Shown piece after piece: positions 8,259-62,955 of a stretch of 64,000 nucleotides of DNA (its first letter is position 1; the number at the start of each line of letters is the position of its first letter). The notes under the pieces were generated by a model that saw nothing but the letters and a program-made list of their open reading frames with translations, did not search any database and was not told the origin of the DNA. A program made the position numbers and the translations under genes. This stretch comes from Bdellovibrionales bacterium. Its GTDB lineage: Bacteria > Bdellovibrionota > Bdellovibrionia > Bdellovibrionales > JAUICD01. The stretch covers positions 1,248,001 through 1,312,000 of the forward strand of contig OZ241865.1 in the NCBI GenBank assembly GCA_965203275.1. Reading direction: 5' to 3'.

Positions 8259-8910
8259 CTCACTAAAAGTGGGTTGTTCCCCTAAAGTAGTCGGGCAACC
8301 TGACGTAAGAAGGAACTTTTTCCTTAACATTTCACTCAAAATGCATCATGCCGTCTTTTGCACTTGAAATGAACCACACCTCTGGTGTGTTTTTGGGCAT
8401 TGCTCTGACAGCTCACGCTGTCTAAAAAGAGCAATGCCTCAAAAATCTGTTCATTTCAAGTAGGGGAGGATCCTCTCGTCTCTTAACTACATATTAAGGA
8501 AATTTTTCTTTCTTACACCTTGGGCAATGACCGCGTTGTCTCACTAAAAATAAACCAGCCTCTGGCTGTTTTTGGGCAATCAGCCCGACGGCTCTCGCCG
8601 TCGATAAAAGGCTGATTGCCTCAAAAATCCGTTTATTTTTAGTAGGAAGAATCCTCTTGTCTCTTTACACGATGTTAAGGAAAAAAGATGTTTACTTCAC
8701 GTTGACAAAATGGTCATTGCCTCAAAAATCTATGCATTTTGAGTAGAGAAGGATCTTTTTATTCCTCTACACCATGTTAGGGAAATTTTCTTTTATTACC
8801 TCAAGAGCAAGCAGGTTGCAATAAAGAAACTTTTTCCTTAACATTTATTCAAGAGACGAGGAGATCCTCCTTGCTTAAAATGTATAGATTCTTTAGGTAG
8901 TTAGCAAGCC
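8259..8910. repeat. Modular repeat cluster with two complete family A units (8362-8461, 8543-8643), partial units, linker and hubs
   Basis: Nested inverted repeats read directly, e.g. ACTTGAAATGAA/TTCATTTCAAGT and ACTAAAAATAAA/TTTATTTTTAGT. Confidence 0.92.
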
Positions 8911-8989
8911 AACAAAGTTTCGTATCAAAAAAGCTGTTTAATTTTAGTCAGTTCAAATGTTGCATGTTGTTATAGTTTAATGCAGGCGG

Positions 8990-9017
8990 TTGACTTTTAA
9001 TGTTAATAGGGTATAAT
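8990..9017 (+). promoter_or_regulatory. Sigma70 promoter, copy 1
   Basis: TTGACT-N16-TATAAT followed by AGAGGT SD and ATG at 9042. Confidence 0.7.
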
Positions 9018-9041
9018 GATATAAAATAGAGGTATTAAAAT

Positions 9042-9569
9042 ATGGAGTTTTTGCAAATAATCGTAACTTTCATAGTTTTCTTTGTCAGCTTAATTGGCAT
9101 AGTGAGGTTTTATATTGAACCTTTTAAAGAACAGTTCAAGGAACAATTCAAAGATTTTAAGAAGGATATTAAAGAACAAGTCAGTAATCATATACCCTCA
9201 CAGATTAAAGAGATGAAGGACGACATTAAGGCACTTGATCAGAAAATTGATAATAATATTAAAGCACTTGATCAGAAAGTTGATAATAATATTAAGGCAC
9301 TTGAGCAGAAAGTTGATAATAATACTAAGGCACTTGAGCAGAAAGTTGATAAACTTGAGCAGAAAGTTGATAATAACATTAAGGCACTTGAGCAGAAAGT
9401 TGATAAACTTGAGCAGAAAGTTGATAAACTTGAGCAGAAAGTTGATAATAATACTAAAGCACTTGAGCAGAAGATTGACCAAAACTATAAAGACTTAACC
9501 GCACAAAATAAAGATACCAATCGACGTCTTGATAAGATATTTGAGTTGCTATCTAAACCTTCCACTTAA
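9042..9569 (+). CDS. Membrane-anchored coiled-coil repeat protein, copy 1 (175 aa)
   Basis: N-terminal TM helix, KEQVSNHIP motif, tandem 11-aa (DNNIKALEQKV) and 7-aa (DKLEQKV) repeats. Confidence 0.85.
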   Translation: MEFLQIIVTFIVFFVSLIGIVRFYIEPFKEQFKEQFKDFKKDIKEQVSNHIPSQIKEMKDDIKALDQKIDNNIKALDQKVDNNIKALEQKVDNNTKALEQKVDKLEQKVDNNIKALEQKVDKLEQKVDKLEQKVDNNTKALEQKIDQNYKDLTAQNKDTNRRLDKIFELLSKPST

Positions 9570-9595
9570 TCTTTTACTACATCCAACAAAAAGAC

Positions 9596-9730
9596 ACTGC
9601 TAACTCAAAAATGACCAGAGGTCAGTTTACTTTTAGTGAAAGTGATGAAGGAACTTTTTCCTTAACATGTGGTCAAGAGACGAAGAGATCCTCCTTGCTT
9701 AAAATGTATAGATTCTTTAGGTAGTTAGCA
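9596..9730. repeat. Two family A half-units joined by a hub between the duplicated genes
   Basis: TGACC-AGA-GGTCA, GTTTACTTTTAGTGA, TTTTCCTTAACA. Confidence 0.85.
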
Positions 9731-60006: not shown

Positions 60007-60024
60007 ATTCAGTATATTTGAGCT

Positions 60025-60495
60025 ACTGTCAGGCTAACTGCCTCAAAAGCCTGTTCACTTTTAGGAAGGAGGATCTCCTCATTTCTTAACACGATGTTAA
60101 GGAAAAAGGAGTTTCTTTTTTTGTTTTTTTATTCTCTTTTAGATTCTGCGTAATTTTCAAAAAAGCATGAATATTATGAGTGGGAGGCGGGGGCAGGCTG
60201 GAGATCTTCCGCAGACCCGCTTGCTCCTTAAAAGCAAGCGAAGGTTGAGGACTTCGGAAGCCTGACTCCGCATTCCACTCATAAAAAATATACAAATGGA
60301 AAAGCAGAATCGAAGGGCGGTGGGTGGGGTTAGGGAGTTAGCTGTTTCACTCAAAGTGAACTGGCCTCTGGCCACTTTTGGGCAATGACTGCAATGGCTT
60401 TCGCCATTGGCAAAATGGTCATTGCCTCAAAAATCTATGCATTTTGAGTAGGGCGAATCTCCTTGCTTCTTGACACGATGTTAGGGAAACAAGAT
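60025..60495. repeat. Family A tail, family B copy (60095-60337) and chimeric family A unit (60349-60449)
   Basis: Direct reading; hubs at 60095 and 60479. Confidence 0.92.
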
Positions 60496-60522
60496 ATGCT
60501 TCTCAAAAACCAGGTGGCTATG

Positions 60523-62439
60523 CTAAGCTGCCATCTTAAGATGAGATTTTTTAAGGTTAGGTTTTTTGCCTAACTTCTTAGCTTCCTTTATAACAATATT
60601 TTGTTGCTTCTGTATATTCTTAATATATGGATGTAATGCTTCTCTGATCTGTTCAACATATACCTTCACTTGATCAGATAAGCCTTTCATGCTTTGAACA
60701 CGTTGATTGAGTATAGCTTTTTCTGCCTCTTTAACTTGTTGTACGATGTGATCTTCTCTGTTGTGTCTTTCCCTCTCTGTTTTTTCAATTTCAGATAAAA
60801 TAAATTGACGGCATAAGCCCTTTTGAGCAAACGCTTGAAATAAAAGACCTCTGTCTTTATATTTATTGTTTTTAAAATCTTTTGCAAAAGACTCTTTGAG
60901 ATCTTGTATGAATTGCTTGTTTTTTTCATAGATGACAAATTCTTGACTTGGCCAAAAATATTCTATCCAACTGAATGCTTTTGTTATTTCCACTGTGGAA
61001 TCTGGAATATTGTTAAGTAATTTTTGTTTTAATTCTGTAGATGGCTTTTCTTTTAAAATAGTCCATTCTGTTAAGTCTTGTACTTTGCTGTTTATTTTGA
61101 TCTTTGCCTCAGAAGCTATTTGATTCAAACGTTTTTGCTCTGATTGTTTGTATTGATGGAACTGATCTTCATATTGTTGTCCTGTTTCTTTACTGACTTT
61201 TTGAAACTTTTTAAATACTCTTTTAAGCTTTTTCATAGCTTCTCGTAAAGGTTCTTCTTTTATTTCATTTGTAAACCCTCGTCCAAAAAGACCTCCAATA
61301 AGGCCTCCAGCAACACCTCCAATAACTGTTCCAGGACCAGGTATAATAGAACCAATAGTTGCTCCCAAAGCGGCACCTCCACTCATGCCCACTCCAGTAC
61401 CTACACAATCAAGTCCGACATTTACTAAAGCTGATTCTATATCTGTATTATTTTTTCTTAAAAGATTTATTTCTCGATAACCAGAAAATGCTGCTGTAAA
61501 TAAAGGAAGAGAGAAACCACCAACCTCTCCTAAAGCAAAATCACTGCCTGCCTCAACACCTTCTGTCACAGCTTCTTTGGAAAGGCTATGAACACTTTCT
61601 GTCACAGCTTCGTTGGAAAGGCTATGATCAACAATGACTCCATTGGTAGGATTGTCTTCTAAAAAGCTATTTAAACCATCCACACCCTCAGAAGGATCAA
61701 AATGAAAGGCTGTGGCTGTCTCGGGGATGTTGTCTGCATCAGCAGGGATTACGACAGGAATATCAGAATGCCCTTTGAAATGTTTTGTAAGGCTACTAGC
61801 ATCTTTTACTAGTTTGACTTGTACTTGATTGTCATTGAGTAAAAGGTCCCATCCTTCTTGATTGGAAGCCTCTGCCCACTGTACATCTATTCCAGCTTCT
61901 TTAAAATGCTCAGCGACATGGCTTTCTGCTACATGGCCTTTGAGTTTATTTAAAGCTCCTTCTGTAAGTCCTTCAGAATCACGAGCATAATCTTTGAGTT
62001 TTGCAGACAGATCAGAAAAGTTATTTATTTGCTCCCCAGACATACGAGAAATACCTTCATAAAGGTGAGTATCTACAGCTAGATATCGATGAAAGATACT
62101 AGCTCCTGCAATAGCACTATCAGCAATAACCGGAGTAACAGGGAGTTGATGAATATTTGATTTTTCTGTCCCTGATGTATTAGAGCTTGATGTATTAGAA
62201 TTTAATGTATCAGAAGAAGACATAGAAGTTGAAGATACAGCATTTATTTTAGGAGTAGAGTGTTTAAGGTGGGAGTTTTTATTTCTTAGGTTTTTCATAT
62301 AACTGCCTATATCGTAAGGGGAAAGATTTGCTTTTGCTTGGTGTTCCACTGTTTTAGAGTAGAATAAGTAGAGATGACGAACCAAGCTTGTAAAACACAA
62401 TAAAAATAAAGTACTTAATACATAAAATAATATGTTCAT
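60523..62439 (-). CDS. Membrane-associated protein with possible restriction-endonuclease-like domain, glycine zipper and coiled coil
   Basis: KGHVAE...NQEGWDLL...VQVK; GGAALGATIGSIIPGPGTVIGGVAGGLIGG. Confidence 0.7.
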   Translation of the reverse strand: MNILFYVLSTLFLLCFTSLVRHLYLFYSKTVEHQAKANLSPYDIGSYMKNLRNKNSHLKHSTPKINAVSSTSMSSSDTLNSNTSSSNTSGTEKSNIHQLPVTPVIADSAIAGASIFHRYLAVDTHLYEGISRMSGEQINNFSDLSAKLKDYARDSEGLTEGALNKLKGHVAESHVAEHFKEAGIDVQWAEASNQEGWDLLLNDNQVQVKLVKDASSLTKHFKGHSDIPVVIPADADNIPETATAFHFDPSEGVDGLNSFLEDNPTNGVIVDHSLSNEAVTESVHSLSKEAVTEGVEAGSDFALGEVGGFSLPLFTAAFSGYREINLLRKNNTDIESALVNVGLDCVGTGVGMSGGAALGATIGSIIPGPGTVIGGVAGGLIGGLFGRGFTNEIKEEPLREAMKKLKRVFKKFQKVSKETGQQYEDQFHQYKQSEQKRLNQIASEAKIKINSKVQDLTEWTILKEKPSTELKQKLLNNIPDSTVEITKAFSWIEYFWPSQEFVIYEKNKQFIQDLKESFAKDFKNNKYKDRGLLFQAFAQKGLCRQFILSEIEKTERERHNREDHIVQQVKEAEKAILNQRVQSMKGLSDQVKVYVEQIREALHPYIKNIQKQQNIVIKEAKKLGKKPNLKKSHLKMAA

Positions 62440-62592
62440 TTTTTTCTCCTTATTTTATATTTGTTGCTATTTCTTACTTTCTTATCGGCAGTTTGTCAGT
62501 TTAAATTCAAAAAAAATCACAATTTATCACAAAATAATCAAAAAAATTAAACAGTGTCTTTTTATTTTTCAGTTTGTATTGAATATTGTACA

Positions 62593-62955
62593 TTTCACTC
62601 AAAATGCATCATGCCTCTGGCATGTTTTTGGACAATGACCGCAATGGCTTTCGCCATTGGCAAAATGGTCATTGCCTCAAAAATCTATGCATTTTGAGTA
62701 GGGCGAATCTCCTTGCTTCTTACACCATGTTAGGGAAAATTTCTTTTATTGCCTCAAGAGCAAGCGGGCTACAATAAAGGAGTTTTTTCCTTAACATGTA
62801 GTAAAAAAACGAAGGTTTCCTCCTTACTAAAAGTGAACAGGCTTTCTAGGTTGCCAGCATTTGAGAAGGCGGTAGCCTTCGGCTGGCAACCAGAAAGTGA
62901 CCAGAGGTCAGTTCACTTTGAGTGAACCAGAGGCATGATTTATTTTGAGTGAAAT
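62593..62955. mobile_element. MITE/REPIN-like composite: family A unit (62597-62699), linker, inverted unit (62826-62923) plus an extra end
   Basis: Bounded by TACATTTCACTCAAAAT...ATTTTGAGTGAAATGTA inverted ends; same layout as 39635-40009. Confidence 0.75.

What the first reader, a model, noticed from the sequence alone, without database searches (positions are those of the whole stretch)
8362..62923. Family A: a ~100-nt structured repeat with four covarying helices, candidate undescribed ssDNA/RNA element
Seen: about 14 full units (starts 8362, 8543, 10564, 10825, 11245, 20232, 36041, 38461, 38803, 39641, 39901, 60349, 62597, 62826) share one fold but not sequence. P1 closing helix variants: ACTTGAAATGAA, ACTAAAAATAAA, ACTCAAAATGAG, ACTCAAAATAAA, ACTAAAAGTAAA, ACTCAAAGTGAA, ACTCAAAATGCA, each with its own complement. 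P2 side hairpin: CACACC, CAGCC, CATGCC, TGACC, TAGCC or TGGCC around TCT/AGA. P3: GCATTGCTCT, GCAATCAGCC, GCAGTTAGCC, GTTGCCAGC, GTAGCCAGCC or ACAATGACC, with a conserved one-base bulge below it. P4 apical hairpin: GACAGC, CGACGGC, CGACGAC, GAAGGC, CAAAGGC or CAATGGC. On one strand the P4 loops read GTGA, GAGA, GAAA, GTAA, GGTA, GATA, GAATA or GTATA closed by C-G, and most checked imperfect pairs are G-T on that strand (e.g. the 39901, 10825 and 62597 units). d(cGNNAg) loops are known to be very stable in DNA, and structure-over-sequence recognition is typical of REPs, IS200/605 ends and attC sites. Inference: a single-strand fold under selection, recognised by a trans-acting factor not encoded here.
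Basis: partly seen in the sequence, partly recalled or inferred. Interest (0 to 1): 0.92.

Follow-up and report, generated by a model that had tools for sequence, protein, structure and literature searches.

The report
Abundant Y-shaped hairpin DNA repeat
The listed units are real copies of a 153-base non-coding repeat that keeps a three-armed hairpin fold while its sequence varies; it fills about 6% of this small uncultured bacterial genome and behaves like a selfish mobile repeat whose moving enzyme is still unknown.

Summary
Observation confirmed. All 14 listed units are full-length matches to one covariance model (116-168 bits). They share a Y-shaped fold with strong compensatory variation: 26 of 50 pairs, against 2-7 in slid controls.

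The real unit is about 153 nt, not about 100. The four-helix core carries a conserved 45-nt tail, and the window also holds about 17 fragments.

Genome-wide there are 1,395 pieces, 709 of them full, covering 6.4% of 2.57 Mb. They are almost all intergenic and lie in both orientations.

The strand claim holds for the core. P4 loops read GNNA on one strand in 596 of 705 copies, and wobble mismatches favour that strand 85 to 16. The tail leans the other way.

Copies nest co-oriented inside each other's hairpin loops, form tail-to-tail doublets and have disrupted Rpn genes. Identical copies sit in unrelated flanks, so the family was recently mobile.

No Y1/RAYT, TnpB, IS110 or reverse transcriptase gene was found. 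Rpn, IVP, IS256, IS4 and serine-recombinase genes do not track the element. No Rfam, phage or plasmid match.

The family occurs in only 3 of 41 related genomes.

This scan had already reported the family from other windows of this genome. Closest published analogue: bcr1 of Bacillus cereus. A new variant of a known kind.

The parts
8358..8510 (+). full unit (core + tail)
   Evidence: CM R1 139.0 bits, model 1-152
8539..8691 (+). full unit, nested in the P3/P4 region of an older copy whose remainder follows at 8700-8793
   Evidence: CM 167.6 bits; nhmmer piece 8700-8793, HMM 65-156; sequence
10516..10669 (-). full unit
   Evidence: CM 155.6 bits
10777..10933 (-). full unit nested co-oriented inside another unit (host pieces 10934-10997 and 10674-10762)
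   Evidence: CM 116 bits; nested pair listed as G000 1258669-1259002
11196..11347 (-). full unit
   Evidence: CM 154.9 bits
20228..20380 (+). full unit followed by two stacked 3' remnants (20389-20469, 20470-20543)
   Evidence: CM 143.4 bits; nhmmer
36037..36189 (+). full unit, followed by 3' remnant 36203-36307
   Evidence: CM 162.5 bits; nhmmer
38457..38609 (+). full unit with chimeric P1; tail-to-tail with remnant 38641-38754 (-) across a conserved spacer
   Evidence: CM 128.7 bits
38755..38907 (-). full unit preceded by two stacked orphan heads (38911-38984)
   Evidence: CM 158.9 bits; sequence
39637..39789 (+). full unit, half of a tail-to-tail doublet that replaces part of an Rpn gene
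   Evidence: CM 161 bits; paralogue alignment
39852..40007 (-). full unit, other half of that doublet
   Evidence: CM 148.7 bits
60345..60497 (+). full unit with chimeric P1
   Evidence: CM 148 bits
62593..62746 (+). full unit, half of a tail-to-tail doublet
   Evidence: CM 145.4 bits; spacer
62778..62927 (-). full unit, other half of the doublet; an orphan head of another allele abuts its 5' end (62929-62973)
   Evidence: CM 155.3 bits
8823..9642 (-). unit split between head (9598-9642) and 3' part (8823-8905), with a 175-aa coiled-coil gene (9042-9569, + strand) in between
   Evidence: nhmmer HMM 4-48 and 76-158; ORF; Pfam
9647..10379 (-). second split unit of the same design, carrying the 146-aa paralogue (9866-10306, + strand)
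   Evidence: D8, D17
40539..40603 (+). minimal form (P1 hairpin + tail) just upstream of, and divergent from, the Rpn gene start; a twin lies at 369-431
   Evidence: nhmmer HMM 94-158; repeat D9, 86% identity
31526..31566 (+). orphan head
   Evidence: nhmmer HMM 2-42
60031..60115 (+). 3' remnant (P3' to tail)
   Evidence: nhmmer HMM 74-158

Best explanation
Family A is a non-autonomous, structure-dependent mobile DNA repeat. It is a selfish intergenic element of the REP/REPIN, MITE and bcr1 kind.

Each unit is about 153 nt. It has an 8-nt leader (consensus TCTGTTTC) and a Y-shaped core made of P1 (13 bp), the P2 hairpin and the long bulged P3-P4 arm. A 45-nt tail follows.

Shown:
- It is very abundant, intergenic, found in both orientations and patchy among relatives.
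- Its pairing is kept through sequence change.
- Identical copies sit in unrelated flanks.
- Copies are joined in the same orientation into hairpin loops of other copies.
- Tail-to-tail doublets exist and have replaced parts of genes.

Inferred:
- The element is copied through a single-stranded stage, most likely ssDNA, in which the strand bearing the GNNA loop folds.
- A trans-acting enzyme recognises shape rather than sequence and joins the element's 5' leader end to exposed hairpin loops or YTG-type sites.
- The discrete helix alleles then reassort by recombination between copies.

The enzyme is not identified. None of the usual candidates is encoded.
For: Abundance and position: there are 1,395 nhmmer pieces, 709 of them full length, covering 164,650 bp or 6.41% of the genome. 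All 150 of 150 CM hits scored genome-wide are full length at 140-172 bits. Only 12,529 of the 164,650 element bases lie in ORFs of 90 aa or more, although such ORFs cover 77% of the genome.

No host-function orientation: flanking-gene contexts are -+ 183, -- 169, ++ 154, +- 151. There is no bias along the chromosome.

Mobility: 51 groups of identical 142-nt copies hold 135 copies, and 37 identical pairs have both flanks unrelated.

Nesting: in 24 of 24 nested cases the inner unit has the host unit's orientation. At least 121 of 970 heads abut a P2 5' arm of another copy, and 66 abut the loop of an inverted tail hairpin.

Doublets and gene disruption: 105 tail-to-tail doublets exist, about 75 of them with a conserved 43-53-nt spacer. 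One doublet replaces 150-250 bp of an Rpn gene in three paralogues, with one shared right junction and two different left junctions, each exactly at the element's leader.

Fold.

Strand signal in the core.

Distribution: CM hits occur in G000, G001 (same genus) and G004 (another genus of the family). There are none in G002, G003 or 36 genomes of 12 other families.
Against: No mobilising enzyme was found. Y1_Tnp gave 0 matches, OrfB_IS605 0, DEDD_Tnp_IS110 0 and RVT_1 0. The genome is rated 90% complete.

No target-site duplication was seen. No empty site was recovered, and the 3' end of the unit is not sharply defined.

Many junctions lack the expected remainder of the host copy, leaving orphan heads and tails. 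Recombination or template switching between copies could therefore explain much of the nesting without transposition.

The tail's putative hairpins use G-T on the strand opposite to the core's preference. In one search, 83 of 308 tail cells are G-U on the tail strand. In one search the tail is more stable on that strand in 408 copies against 186.

The covariation rests on a few alleles per helix.

No RNA or population data could be brought to bear.
Confidence: 0.65

Rival explanations
1. The units are genes for, or cis-acting parts of, a structured RNA family. The fold is selected in RNA, with GNNA/GNRA-type loops and G-U pairs. The RNA could act as small RNAs, as decoys or as stabiliser/terminator modules.
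For: P4 loops are GNNA closed by C-G in 596 of 705 copies, and 375 of those are GNRA. The core is more stable on that strand with RNA parameters in 557 of 603 copies. Wobble bias is 85 to 16. P2 followed by a T-run scores as terminator-like on both strands: 15 sites against 2.2 expected in 3.1 kb. The analogue bcr1 is reported as transcribed (PMC3184786, section 8, read).
Against: There is no orientation preference relative to neighbouring genes. No consistent promoter-like site lies inside the units: 10 sites were found against 7.0 expected, and the best belong to the cargo genes. Units are nested, truncated and chimeric at high frequency. Tail wobble pairs point to the other strand. d(GNNA) loops are also stable in DNA (recalled, not tested). 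Nothing matches in Rfam at E <= 1.
Confidence: 0.15
2. The repeats are retained for a host DNA-level role, for example bidirectional terminators, nucleoid or supercoiling sites, or recombination hot spots. In that case they are domesticated rather than currently selfish.
For: They are strictly intergenic. P2 plus a T-run is terminator-like on both strands. The tail holds a conserved palindromic GGATCC-type motif that could be a protein site.
Against: Two close relatives lack them altogether, G003 in the same genus as carrier G004 and G002 in the same family, so they are dispensable. Copies disrupt genes. They pile up in clusters and nest rather than sitting one per gene end. Identical copies lie in unrelated flanks.
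Confidence: 0.1
3. The units are the ends or accessory modules of larger composite elements that carry genes, such as IVP four-helix-bundle cassettes, Rpn nuclease genes or small coiled-coil genes. They would move only as part of those elements.
For: In G000, 10 of 11 IVP ORFs have an oppositely oriented unit or unit piece downstream: 9 at -18 to 93 nt and 1 at 429 nt, beyond a same-oriented unit at 153 nt. In G001, 3 of 3 IVP loci examined have units nearby. Two window units are split around coiled-coil genes. Rpn genes often have a unit head 24-46 nt upstream in divergent orientation. IVP is multi-copy in exactly the three carriers within the family: 14, 19 and 19 copies, against 0 and 0 in the two non-carriers.
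Against: Most copies are solitary, tandem or doublets without any gene. IVP is multi-copy in genomes without the repeat: G021 has 18, G025 11, G026 7 and G031 6. In G004, 0 of 3 IVP loci examined have a unit nearby. Rpn (PF04754) counts do not track the repeat: G003 has 16 without repeats and G004 has 1 with repeats. Only 3 of the 67 coiled-coil genes are enclosed by unit pieces.
Confidence: 0.1

Closest known systems
bcr1 repeat of the Bacillus cereus group (about 155 bp). Source: PMC3184786, section 8, read. The primary papers, Klevan 2007 and Kristoffersen 2011, were not seen.
   Same: Nearly the same size. It is a multi-stem (cruciform-like) fold maintained by compensatory base changes. 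Its genomic distribution is not conserved between close strains, so it is mobile. It carries no gene of its own.
   Different: bcr1 is flanked by 5-bp direct repeats, and none was found here. bcr1 is reported as transcribed, and no RNA data exist here. The fold here is a three-way junction plus an asymmetric tail. Copy number here is far higher, at 709 full copies and 6.4% of the genome. Copies here self-nest in hairpin loops, and discrete helix alleles reassort. The phylum is different. Sequence similarity to bcr1 was not tested because no bcr1 sequence was on hand.
REP / REPIN elements mobilised by RAYT (abstracts of PMC3337134 and PMC3116915 seen in the listing)
   Same: Both are extragenic, very abundant and hairpin-forming. 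Both form inverted doublets separated by a spacer: 105 tail-to-tail doublets here. Both are non-autonomous.
   Different: REPs are 20-40-nt simple palindromes with a conserved end tag, and they depend on a single-copy Y1 transposase. Here the unit is a 153-nt branched fold and no Y1 gene is present. Doublets account for a minority of copies.
Integron attC sites (recalled, no paper read)
   Same: They are recognised by shape rather than sequence, as one folded strand with bulged bases, and their sequence is highly variable.
   Different: No integron integrase context or cassette array was seen. The genome has only two tyrosine-recombinase matches, which were not examined further. The units are not at the 3' ends of cassettes, and they are branched and carry a tail.
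IS200/IS605-derived palindrome-associated elements (recalled)
   Same: Both have subterminal hairpins on one strand, insert in a fixed orientation next to a short motif, and make no target duplication.
   Different: No TnpA (Y1) or TnpB gene is present. There is no orientation bias along the chromosome.
Heptamer-armed hairpin cassettes carrying the 23S rRNA IVS-protein gene
   Same: They occur in the same genomes and the same intergenic clusters. In G000 the IVP gene is flanked by GGGATCY heptamer runs that abut unit tails.
   Different: It is a different element with its own gene and arms. It is widespread in relatives that lack Family A.

Membership tests
REP/REPIN-RAYT | Short (20-40 nt) imperfect palindrome with a conserved terminal tag | tested here: not met
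   The unit is 152-154 nt with a three-way junction and a tail.
REP/REPIN-RAYT | A RAYT (Y1 HUH transposase, PF01797) gene in the genome | tested here: not met
   0 matches in G000, which is 90% complete. The control search rang in 6 of 14 genomes.
REP/REPIN-RAYT | Inverted doublets with a spacer as the mobile form | tested here: inconclusive
   105 tail-to-tail doublets, about 75 with a conserved 43-53-nt spacer. One doublet is inserted in Rpn paralogues. Most copies, however, are single or tandem.
MITE of a DDE transposon | Terminal inverted repeats matching a resident IS, plus target-site duplication | tested here: not met
   Only 2 of 9 IS256-like and 2 of 6 IS4-like loci have Family A pieces within 300 nt, and never as their ends. 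No direct repeats were seen at the ends of 113 solitary units or 52 doublets. The unit is asymmetric, with a tail on one side only.
IS200/IS605-type ssDNA element (PATE) | TnpA (Y1) or TnpB present; strand bias with replication | tested here: not met
   PF01797 gave 0 matches and PF01385 gave 0. Orientation is balanced in all 200-kb bins. The genome has no clear GC skew, so replichores are poorly defined.
IS91 / rolling-circle (Y2) | Y2 transposase | tested here: inconclusive
   PF04986 gave 0 matches, but the control rang in no genome, so the search is uninformative.
IS110/IS1111 (hairpin/REP-targeting) | DEDD transposase | tested here: not met
   PF01548 gave 0 matches; the control rang in 6 of 14 genomes.
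Retroelement-derived repeat (retron, group II intron, DGR) | Reverse transcriptase in the genome | tested here: not met
   PF00078 gave 0 matches.
Integron attC | Integron integrase, and arrays of cassettes each ending in the site | tested here: inconclusive
   Two Phage_integrase matches were found and not characterised. No cassette-array layout was seen in the window.
Any Rfam family | Match to a curated covariance model | tested here: not met
   At gathering thresholds over 64 kb, only a tRNA matched. At E <= 1 over 3.1 kb holding about 10 copies there were 0 matches.
bcr1-type structured mobile repeat | A unit of about 155 bp, a multi-stem fold kept by compensatory changes, a non-conserved distribution, 5-bp direct repeats, and transcription | tested here: inconclusive
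   Size, fold and distribution are met. Direct repeats were not found. Transcription is not testable because no RNA run holds the stretch. Homology was not tested.

The most novel reading that the evidence does not exclude
Family A is the substrate of a so far unrecognised structure-specific DNA mobility system. It would use none of the known small-repeat mobilisers (HUH Y1, a DDE parent IS, IS110 or RT). Instead, a Y-shaped single strand with a GNNA-capped arm would be joined by its 5' leader into exposed hairpin loops. The enzyme might be one of the roughly 50 Rpn-type PD-(D/E)XK nuclease ORFs and fragments that crowd this genome, or another unannotated protein shared by G000, G001 and G004 but missing from G003.
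Probability: 0.12. Interest if true: 0.85.

Novelty: new variant of a known kind. Interest (0 to 1): 0.55.

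Why it matters
Small structured repeats are usually explained by a known transposase: RAYT for REPs, or a parent IS for MITEs. Here a branched 153-nt element has reached about 700 full copies, 6.4% of a 2.6-Mb symbiont-sized genome, with none of those enzymes encoded.

It keeps its fold through wholesale sequence replacement, and it targets the hairpin loops of its own kind. Together with bcr1, this suggests a class of shape-recognised mobile repeats whose mechanism is unsolved.

The pair G003 (no copies) and G004 (copies), which belong to one genus, offers a direct comparative route to the enzyme.

Practically, the family breaks short-read assemblies of these genomes, and it seeds spurious ORF families in gene calls.

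Tried and rejected
1. Expression: no RNA holder was listed for window 35700-41200, so nothing can be said about transcription.

2. Polymorphism: contigs of 4 DNA runs were laid on 20150-40100. The contigs stop at the repeats and the joints are repeat-to-repeat artefacts. No empty site was seen.

3. Metagenome contigs: a search with the 638-aa neighbour protein gave 135 pattern hits, none a relative. I did not use the second scan.

Eight real copies all came from one Bdellovibrionales MAG chromosome, which by coordinates is G001. Nine single hits in other phyla scored 20 bits or less, or not at all. The two best of these (Mesonia) have no complementary arms. Distribution beyond the 41 relatives therefore stays open.

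5. Rpn as mobiliser: rejected on phyletic grounds. The genes carry the variable 4-aa (12-nt) repeats described for Rpn toxin-antitoxin defence nucleases (abstract of PMC10400941; repeat D3).

6. IVP as mobiliser: co-occurrence within the family dissolves at order level.

7. Serine recombinase: 8 matches, but 5 of the 6 loci have no unit piece within 1.2 kb.

8. IS256 and IS4 as MITE parents: rejected.

9. dif/Xer-like reading of the tail: a loose dif-type pattern found 6 unrelated sites and none in tails. Dropped.

10. Target-site duplications: none seen.

11. Replication-strand bias: none, but GC skew is too weak to define replichores.

12. My 84-member 'Rpn' cluster was contaminated by ORFs that read through repeat arrays. 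After filtering, 53 ORFs remain.

13. Phage and plasmid collections: no blastn match to a unit.

14. Literature: searches found no description of this family.

Full report
**What is there**

I aligned them in one orientation. I call this orientation F: P1, P2, P3, P4, P3', P1', then the tail, as in the unit at 8362 on the + strand. Each roughly 100-nt core turns out to be followed by a conserved tail of about 45 nt.

RNAalifold on the MAFFT alignment returns a Y-shaped fold:
- P1, 12-13 bp, closing the junction.
- P2, a 5-6-bp hairpin with loop TCT.
- A long arm of P3, about 15 bp with one bulged base, then an asymmetric internal loop, then P4 (6-7 bp) with a 4-5-nt loop.
- Two small tail hairpins.

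A covariance model built from these 14 units finds them again at 116-168 bits over all 152 model positions, plus 15 weaker pieces. nhmmer lists 32 hits in the window: the 14 full units, 17 fragments and one weak opposite-strand hit. Eight units lie in the F orientation on the + strand and six on the - strand.

**Is it more than chance?**

Yes. On the 14-sequence MAFFT alignment:
- 92.3% of pair cells are standard pairs, against 37-54% when the 3' partners are slid by 1-3 columns.
- 26 of 50 pairs show changes on both sides, against 2-7 in the slid controls.
- 0 of 500 column shuffles reach the observed covariation score.

On 28 units from three genomes (G000, G001 and G004), aligned to the model and therefore leaning towards it, 96.7% of cells pair. 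In that set 31 of 50 pairs have double changes, against 2-8 when slid.

Between species there are clean compensatory steps, for example C-G to T-A at two P4 positions between a G000 allele and a G001 allele.

The tail is weaker. Helix 7 has 0 of 6 pairs with double changes and helix 6 has 2 of 5.

**Genome-wide picture**

The window is G000:C1:1248001-1312000 of a single 2,567,810-bp contig.
- nhmmer finds 1,395 pieces, 709 of them full length, covering 164,650 bp or 6.41% of the genome.
- All 150 of 150 CM hits that the genome search scored are full length at 140-172 bits.
- Only 12,529 element bases fall in ORFs of 90 aa or more, although such ORFs cover 77% of the genome.
- Orientation shows no trend along the chromosome and none relative to neighbouring genes: -+ 183, -- 169, ++ 154, +- 151, and 49 inside called ORFs.

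**Strand question**

I folded all 709 full copies with Watson-Crick pairs only, so that neither strand is favoured, and classified the 1x1 mismatches inside the core helices. Of these, 85 are A-C type on the F strand, which means G-T on the opposite strand R. Only 16 are G-T on F. By distinct sequence contexts the split is 31 to 10. One hot spot lies just above the P3 bulge.

P4 loops, read on R, break down as follows:
- 4-nt GNNA closed by C-G in 596 of 705 copies; 375 of these are GNRA.
- 5-nt G...A loops in 54 more copies.
- About 25 copies carry the loop flipped.

The core is more stable on R in 557 of 603 distinct copies with RNA parameters and in 489 of 603 with DNA parameters.

The tail points the other way. 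Its putative hairpins are full of G-T pairs on F, and it is more stable on F in 408 copies against 186. A single functional strand is therefore not established. The tail may instead be a double-strand protein site.

**Alleles**

Each helix comes in about 8-10 major, mutually unrelated, self-complementary alleles. Normalised mutual information is 0.73 for the adjacent modules P1-P2 and P3-P4, but only 0.48 for P1-P3 and 0.36 for P1-P4.

Modules therefore reassort between copies. The cell counts of covariation overstate the number of independent events. In the window, two of the 14 units (38461 and 60349) have P1 arms from different alleles.

**Evidence for mobility, and how copies join**

- *Identical copies in different places.* 51 groups of identical 142-nt copies hold 135 copies. 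In 37 identical pairs both flanks are unrelated.
- *Shared 5' boundary.* Among identical copies, identity usually ends 8-10 nt upstream of ACT, after the leader TCTGTTTC. On the 3' side it ends 0-4 nt after GTTAAGGAAAA. After that comes a similar but non-identical stretch of about 12 nt.
- *Nesting.* Of 34 head-plus-remainder pairs interrupted by 230 nt or less, 24 enclose Family A units, and all 24 have the host's orientation. The other 10 enclose a different 145-nt insert at one fixed spot between P2 and P3.
- *Junction sites.* Of 970 heads, at least 121 directly follow the 5' arm of another copy's P2. In these, 3-4 nt (TCTG) are shared between the leader and the P2 loop. Another 66 follow the loop of an inverted tail hairpin. 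Others sit at the P3/P4 border or in the asymmetric loop.
- *Orphans.* Many hosts lack their expected remainder, leaving orphan heads and stacked 3' remnants. Examples are 38911-38984, 62929-62973 and 20389-20543.
- *Doublets.* There are 105 tail-to-tail doublets, about 75 with a conserved 43-53-nt spacer. Three of them are in the window.
- *Paralogue test.* An intact Rpn gene (G000 1531336-1532367) was aligned with three interrupted paralogues, including the one at window 39290-40505. A heads-outward doublet replaces 150-250 bp of coding sequence. The right junction is the same in all three. The two different left junctions each lie exactly at the leader of the left unit. This looks like an insertion followed by adjacent deletions from an active end.
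- *Not found.* No target duplication was seen at 113 solitary units or 52 doublets.

**Enzyme search**

These families gave no match in G000:
- Y1_Tnp/RAYT
- OrfB_IS605
- IS110 DEDD
- RVT_1
- Y2_Tnp (but its control rang nowhere, so this search is uninformative)

The genome has two tyrosine-recombinase matches, which I did not examine further.

An all-against-all clustering of ORFs, followed by Pfam on family representatives, showed these multi-copy families: IS256-type (9 copies), IS4-type (6), Rpn/PDDEXK_2, IVP, pilin-like, ankyrin and coiled-coil proteins. None qualifies as the mobiliser:
- *IS256 and IS4.* Their ends are not Family A.
- *Serine recombinase.* There are 8 matches, but 5 of the 6 loci have no unit piece within 1.2 kb.
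- *Rpn.* About 50 ORFs and fragments remain after removing ORFs that merely read through repeats. They often have a unit head just upstream. However, PF04754 counts are G001 19, G003 16, G004 1 and G002 0, which does not follow the repeat. Their 12-nt repeats fit the variable four-residue repeats described for Rpn toxin/antitoxin defence genes (abstract of PMC10400941).
- *IVP.* These genes (PF05635) are flanked by GGGATCY heptamer runs that abut unit tails. Ten of 11 IVP ORFs have an oppositely oriented unit or piece downstream: 9 at -18 to 93 nt and 1 at 429 nt, behind a same-oriented unit. Within the family, IVP is multi-copy only in the three carriers. At order level, though, it is also multi-copy in genomes without the repeat, and 0 of 3 G004 IVP loci have a unit nearby.

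**Distribution**

The model hits G000, G001 (same genus) and G004 (another genus of the same family). It does not hit G002, G003 (same genus as G004) or 36 genomes of 12 other families.

A pattern scan of genome contigs was cut at 17 rows. Its 8 real hits came from one Bdellovibrionales MAG chromosome, which by coordinates is G001. The other 9 are chance matches.

There is no Rfam match and no phage or plasmid match.

**Comparison with what is known**

The closest published analogue I found is bcr1 of the Bacillus cereus group. It is about 155 bp, has a cruciform-like fold kept by compensatory changes, has a non-conserved distribution, has 5-bp direct repeats and is transcribed (PMC3184786, section 8, read; the primary papers were not seen).

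REP/REPIN-RAYT elements (abstracts) share the abundance, the extragenic position and the doublets, but not the size, the fold or the enzyme.

The comparisons with attC sites and IS200/IS605-type elements are recalled resemblances, not tests.

Literature searches found no description of this family.

Earlier agents of this scan reported the same family from other windows of this genome. My counts agree with theirs.

**Verdict**

It is most likely a selfish mobile repeat of a known general kind with an unusual branched fold, self-targeting of hairpin loops and no identifiable mobiliser. Whether ssDNA or RNA is the folded species, what the exact 3' end is, and which enzyme is involved all remain open.

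Noticed in passing
window 31650-32696 (-) and 39290-40505 (-); also 2-331 (-): Three Rpn/YhgA-type PD-(D/E)XK nuclease genes (Transposase_31). Two carry 12-nt tandem repeats near the 3' end (31732-31881, 39387-39536), which fits the variable four-residue repeats reported for Rpn toxin/antitoxin genes. The second gene is split by a repeat doublet. The genome holds about 50 such ORFs and fragments.
   Followed up: partly
window 8821-10441: Two tandem paralogous cassettes. Each holds a small apolipoprotein-like coiled-coil gene (9042-9569, 9866-10306) with internal 21/33-nt repeats and an 11-of-12 promoter-like site (8990-9017, 9814-9841). Each sits between the head and the 3' part of a Family A unit on the opposite strand. 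A third case of this layout lies elsewhere in the genome (G000 921584-922003).
   Followed up: partly
window 39007-39201, 44651-44848, 60140-60336: Another repeat module of about 195 nt. It begins ...TAGATTYTGCGTAA and ends GGTGGGGTTAGGGA. It sits between a Family A tail and the next Family A head. Many copies lie elsewhere in the genome, where they appear as flanks of solitary units.
   Followed up: no
window 10480-10515, 11030-11070, 39190-39240, 40610-40680, 440-580: G+C-rich GGGATCY heptamer runs with a GGCAAC...GGCATCAG motif, abutting unit tails. Elsewhere in the genome the same runs flank both sides of the 14 IVP (PF05635) genes. There is no IVP gene in this window. At 10460-10540 the motif lies between two direct copies of the outer tail half.
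   Followed up: partly
G000 103837-104151, 230932-231247, 827651-827968 and 7 more (outside the window): A distinct insert of about 145 nt with a short variable middle. It occupies exactly the same spot (TTTTG|G between P2 and P3) in 10 Family A units of different alleles. This is a second small element that targets Family A.
   Followed up: no
window 32880-35729 (-): A 949-aa ORF with no Pfam match, 42-45% G+C against about 35% around it. It has long arrays of 21-nt repeats (34743-35129) and 78-nt repeats (33382-33651).
   Followed up: no
genome-wide: In about 25 of 705 copies the P4 loop is flipped, so that GNNA reads on the other strand while the stem is unchanged. This suggests inversion within the hairpin.
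   Followed up: no
window 18168-20165 (-) and genome-wide: A 665-aa ankyrin-repeat protein. My ORF clustering puts 128 ORFs in this family. There are also 35 pilin-like (N_methyl) ORFs and 67 small coiled-coil ORFs, often in tandem arrays.
   Followed up: no
G001 C1 2868250-2870047 and G000 2502747-2503371, 920542-921504: Head-to-tail tandem arrays of full units with fixed periods: 235 nt with 8 copies in G001, and 157 nt and 270 nt in G000.
   Followed up: no
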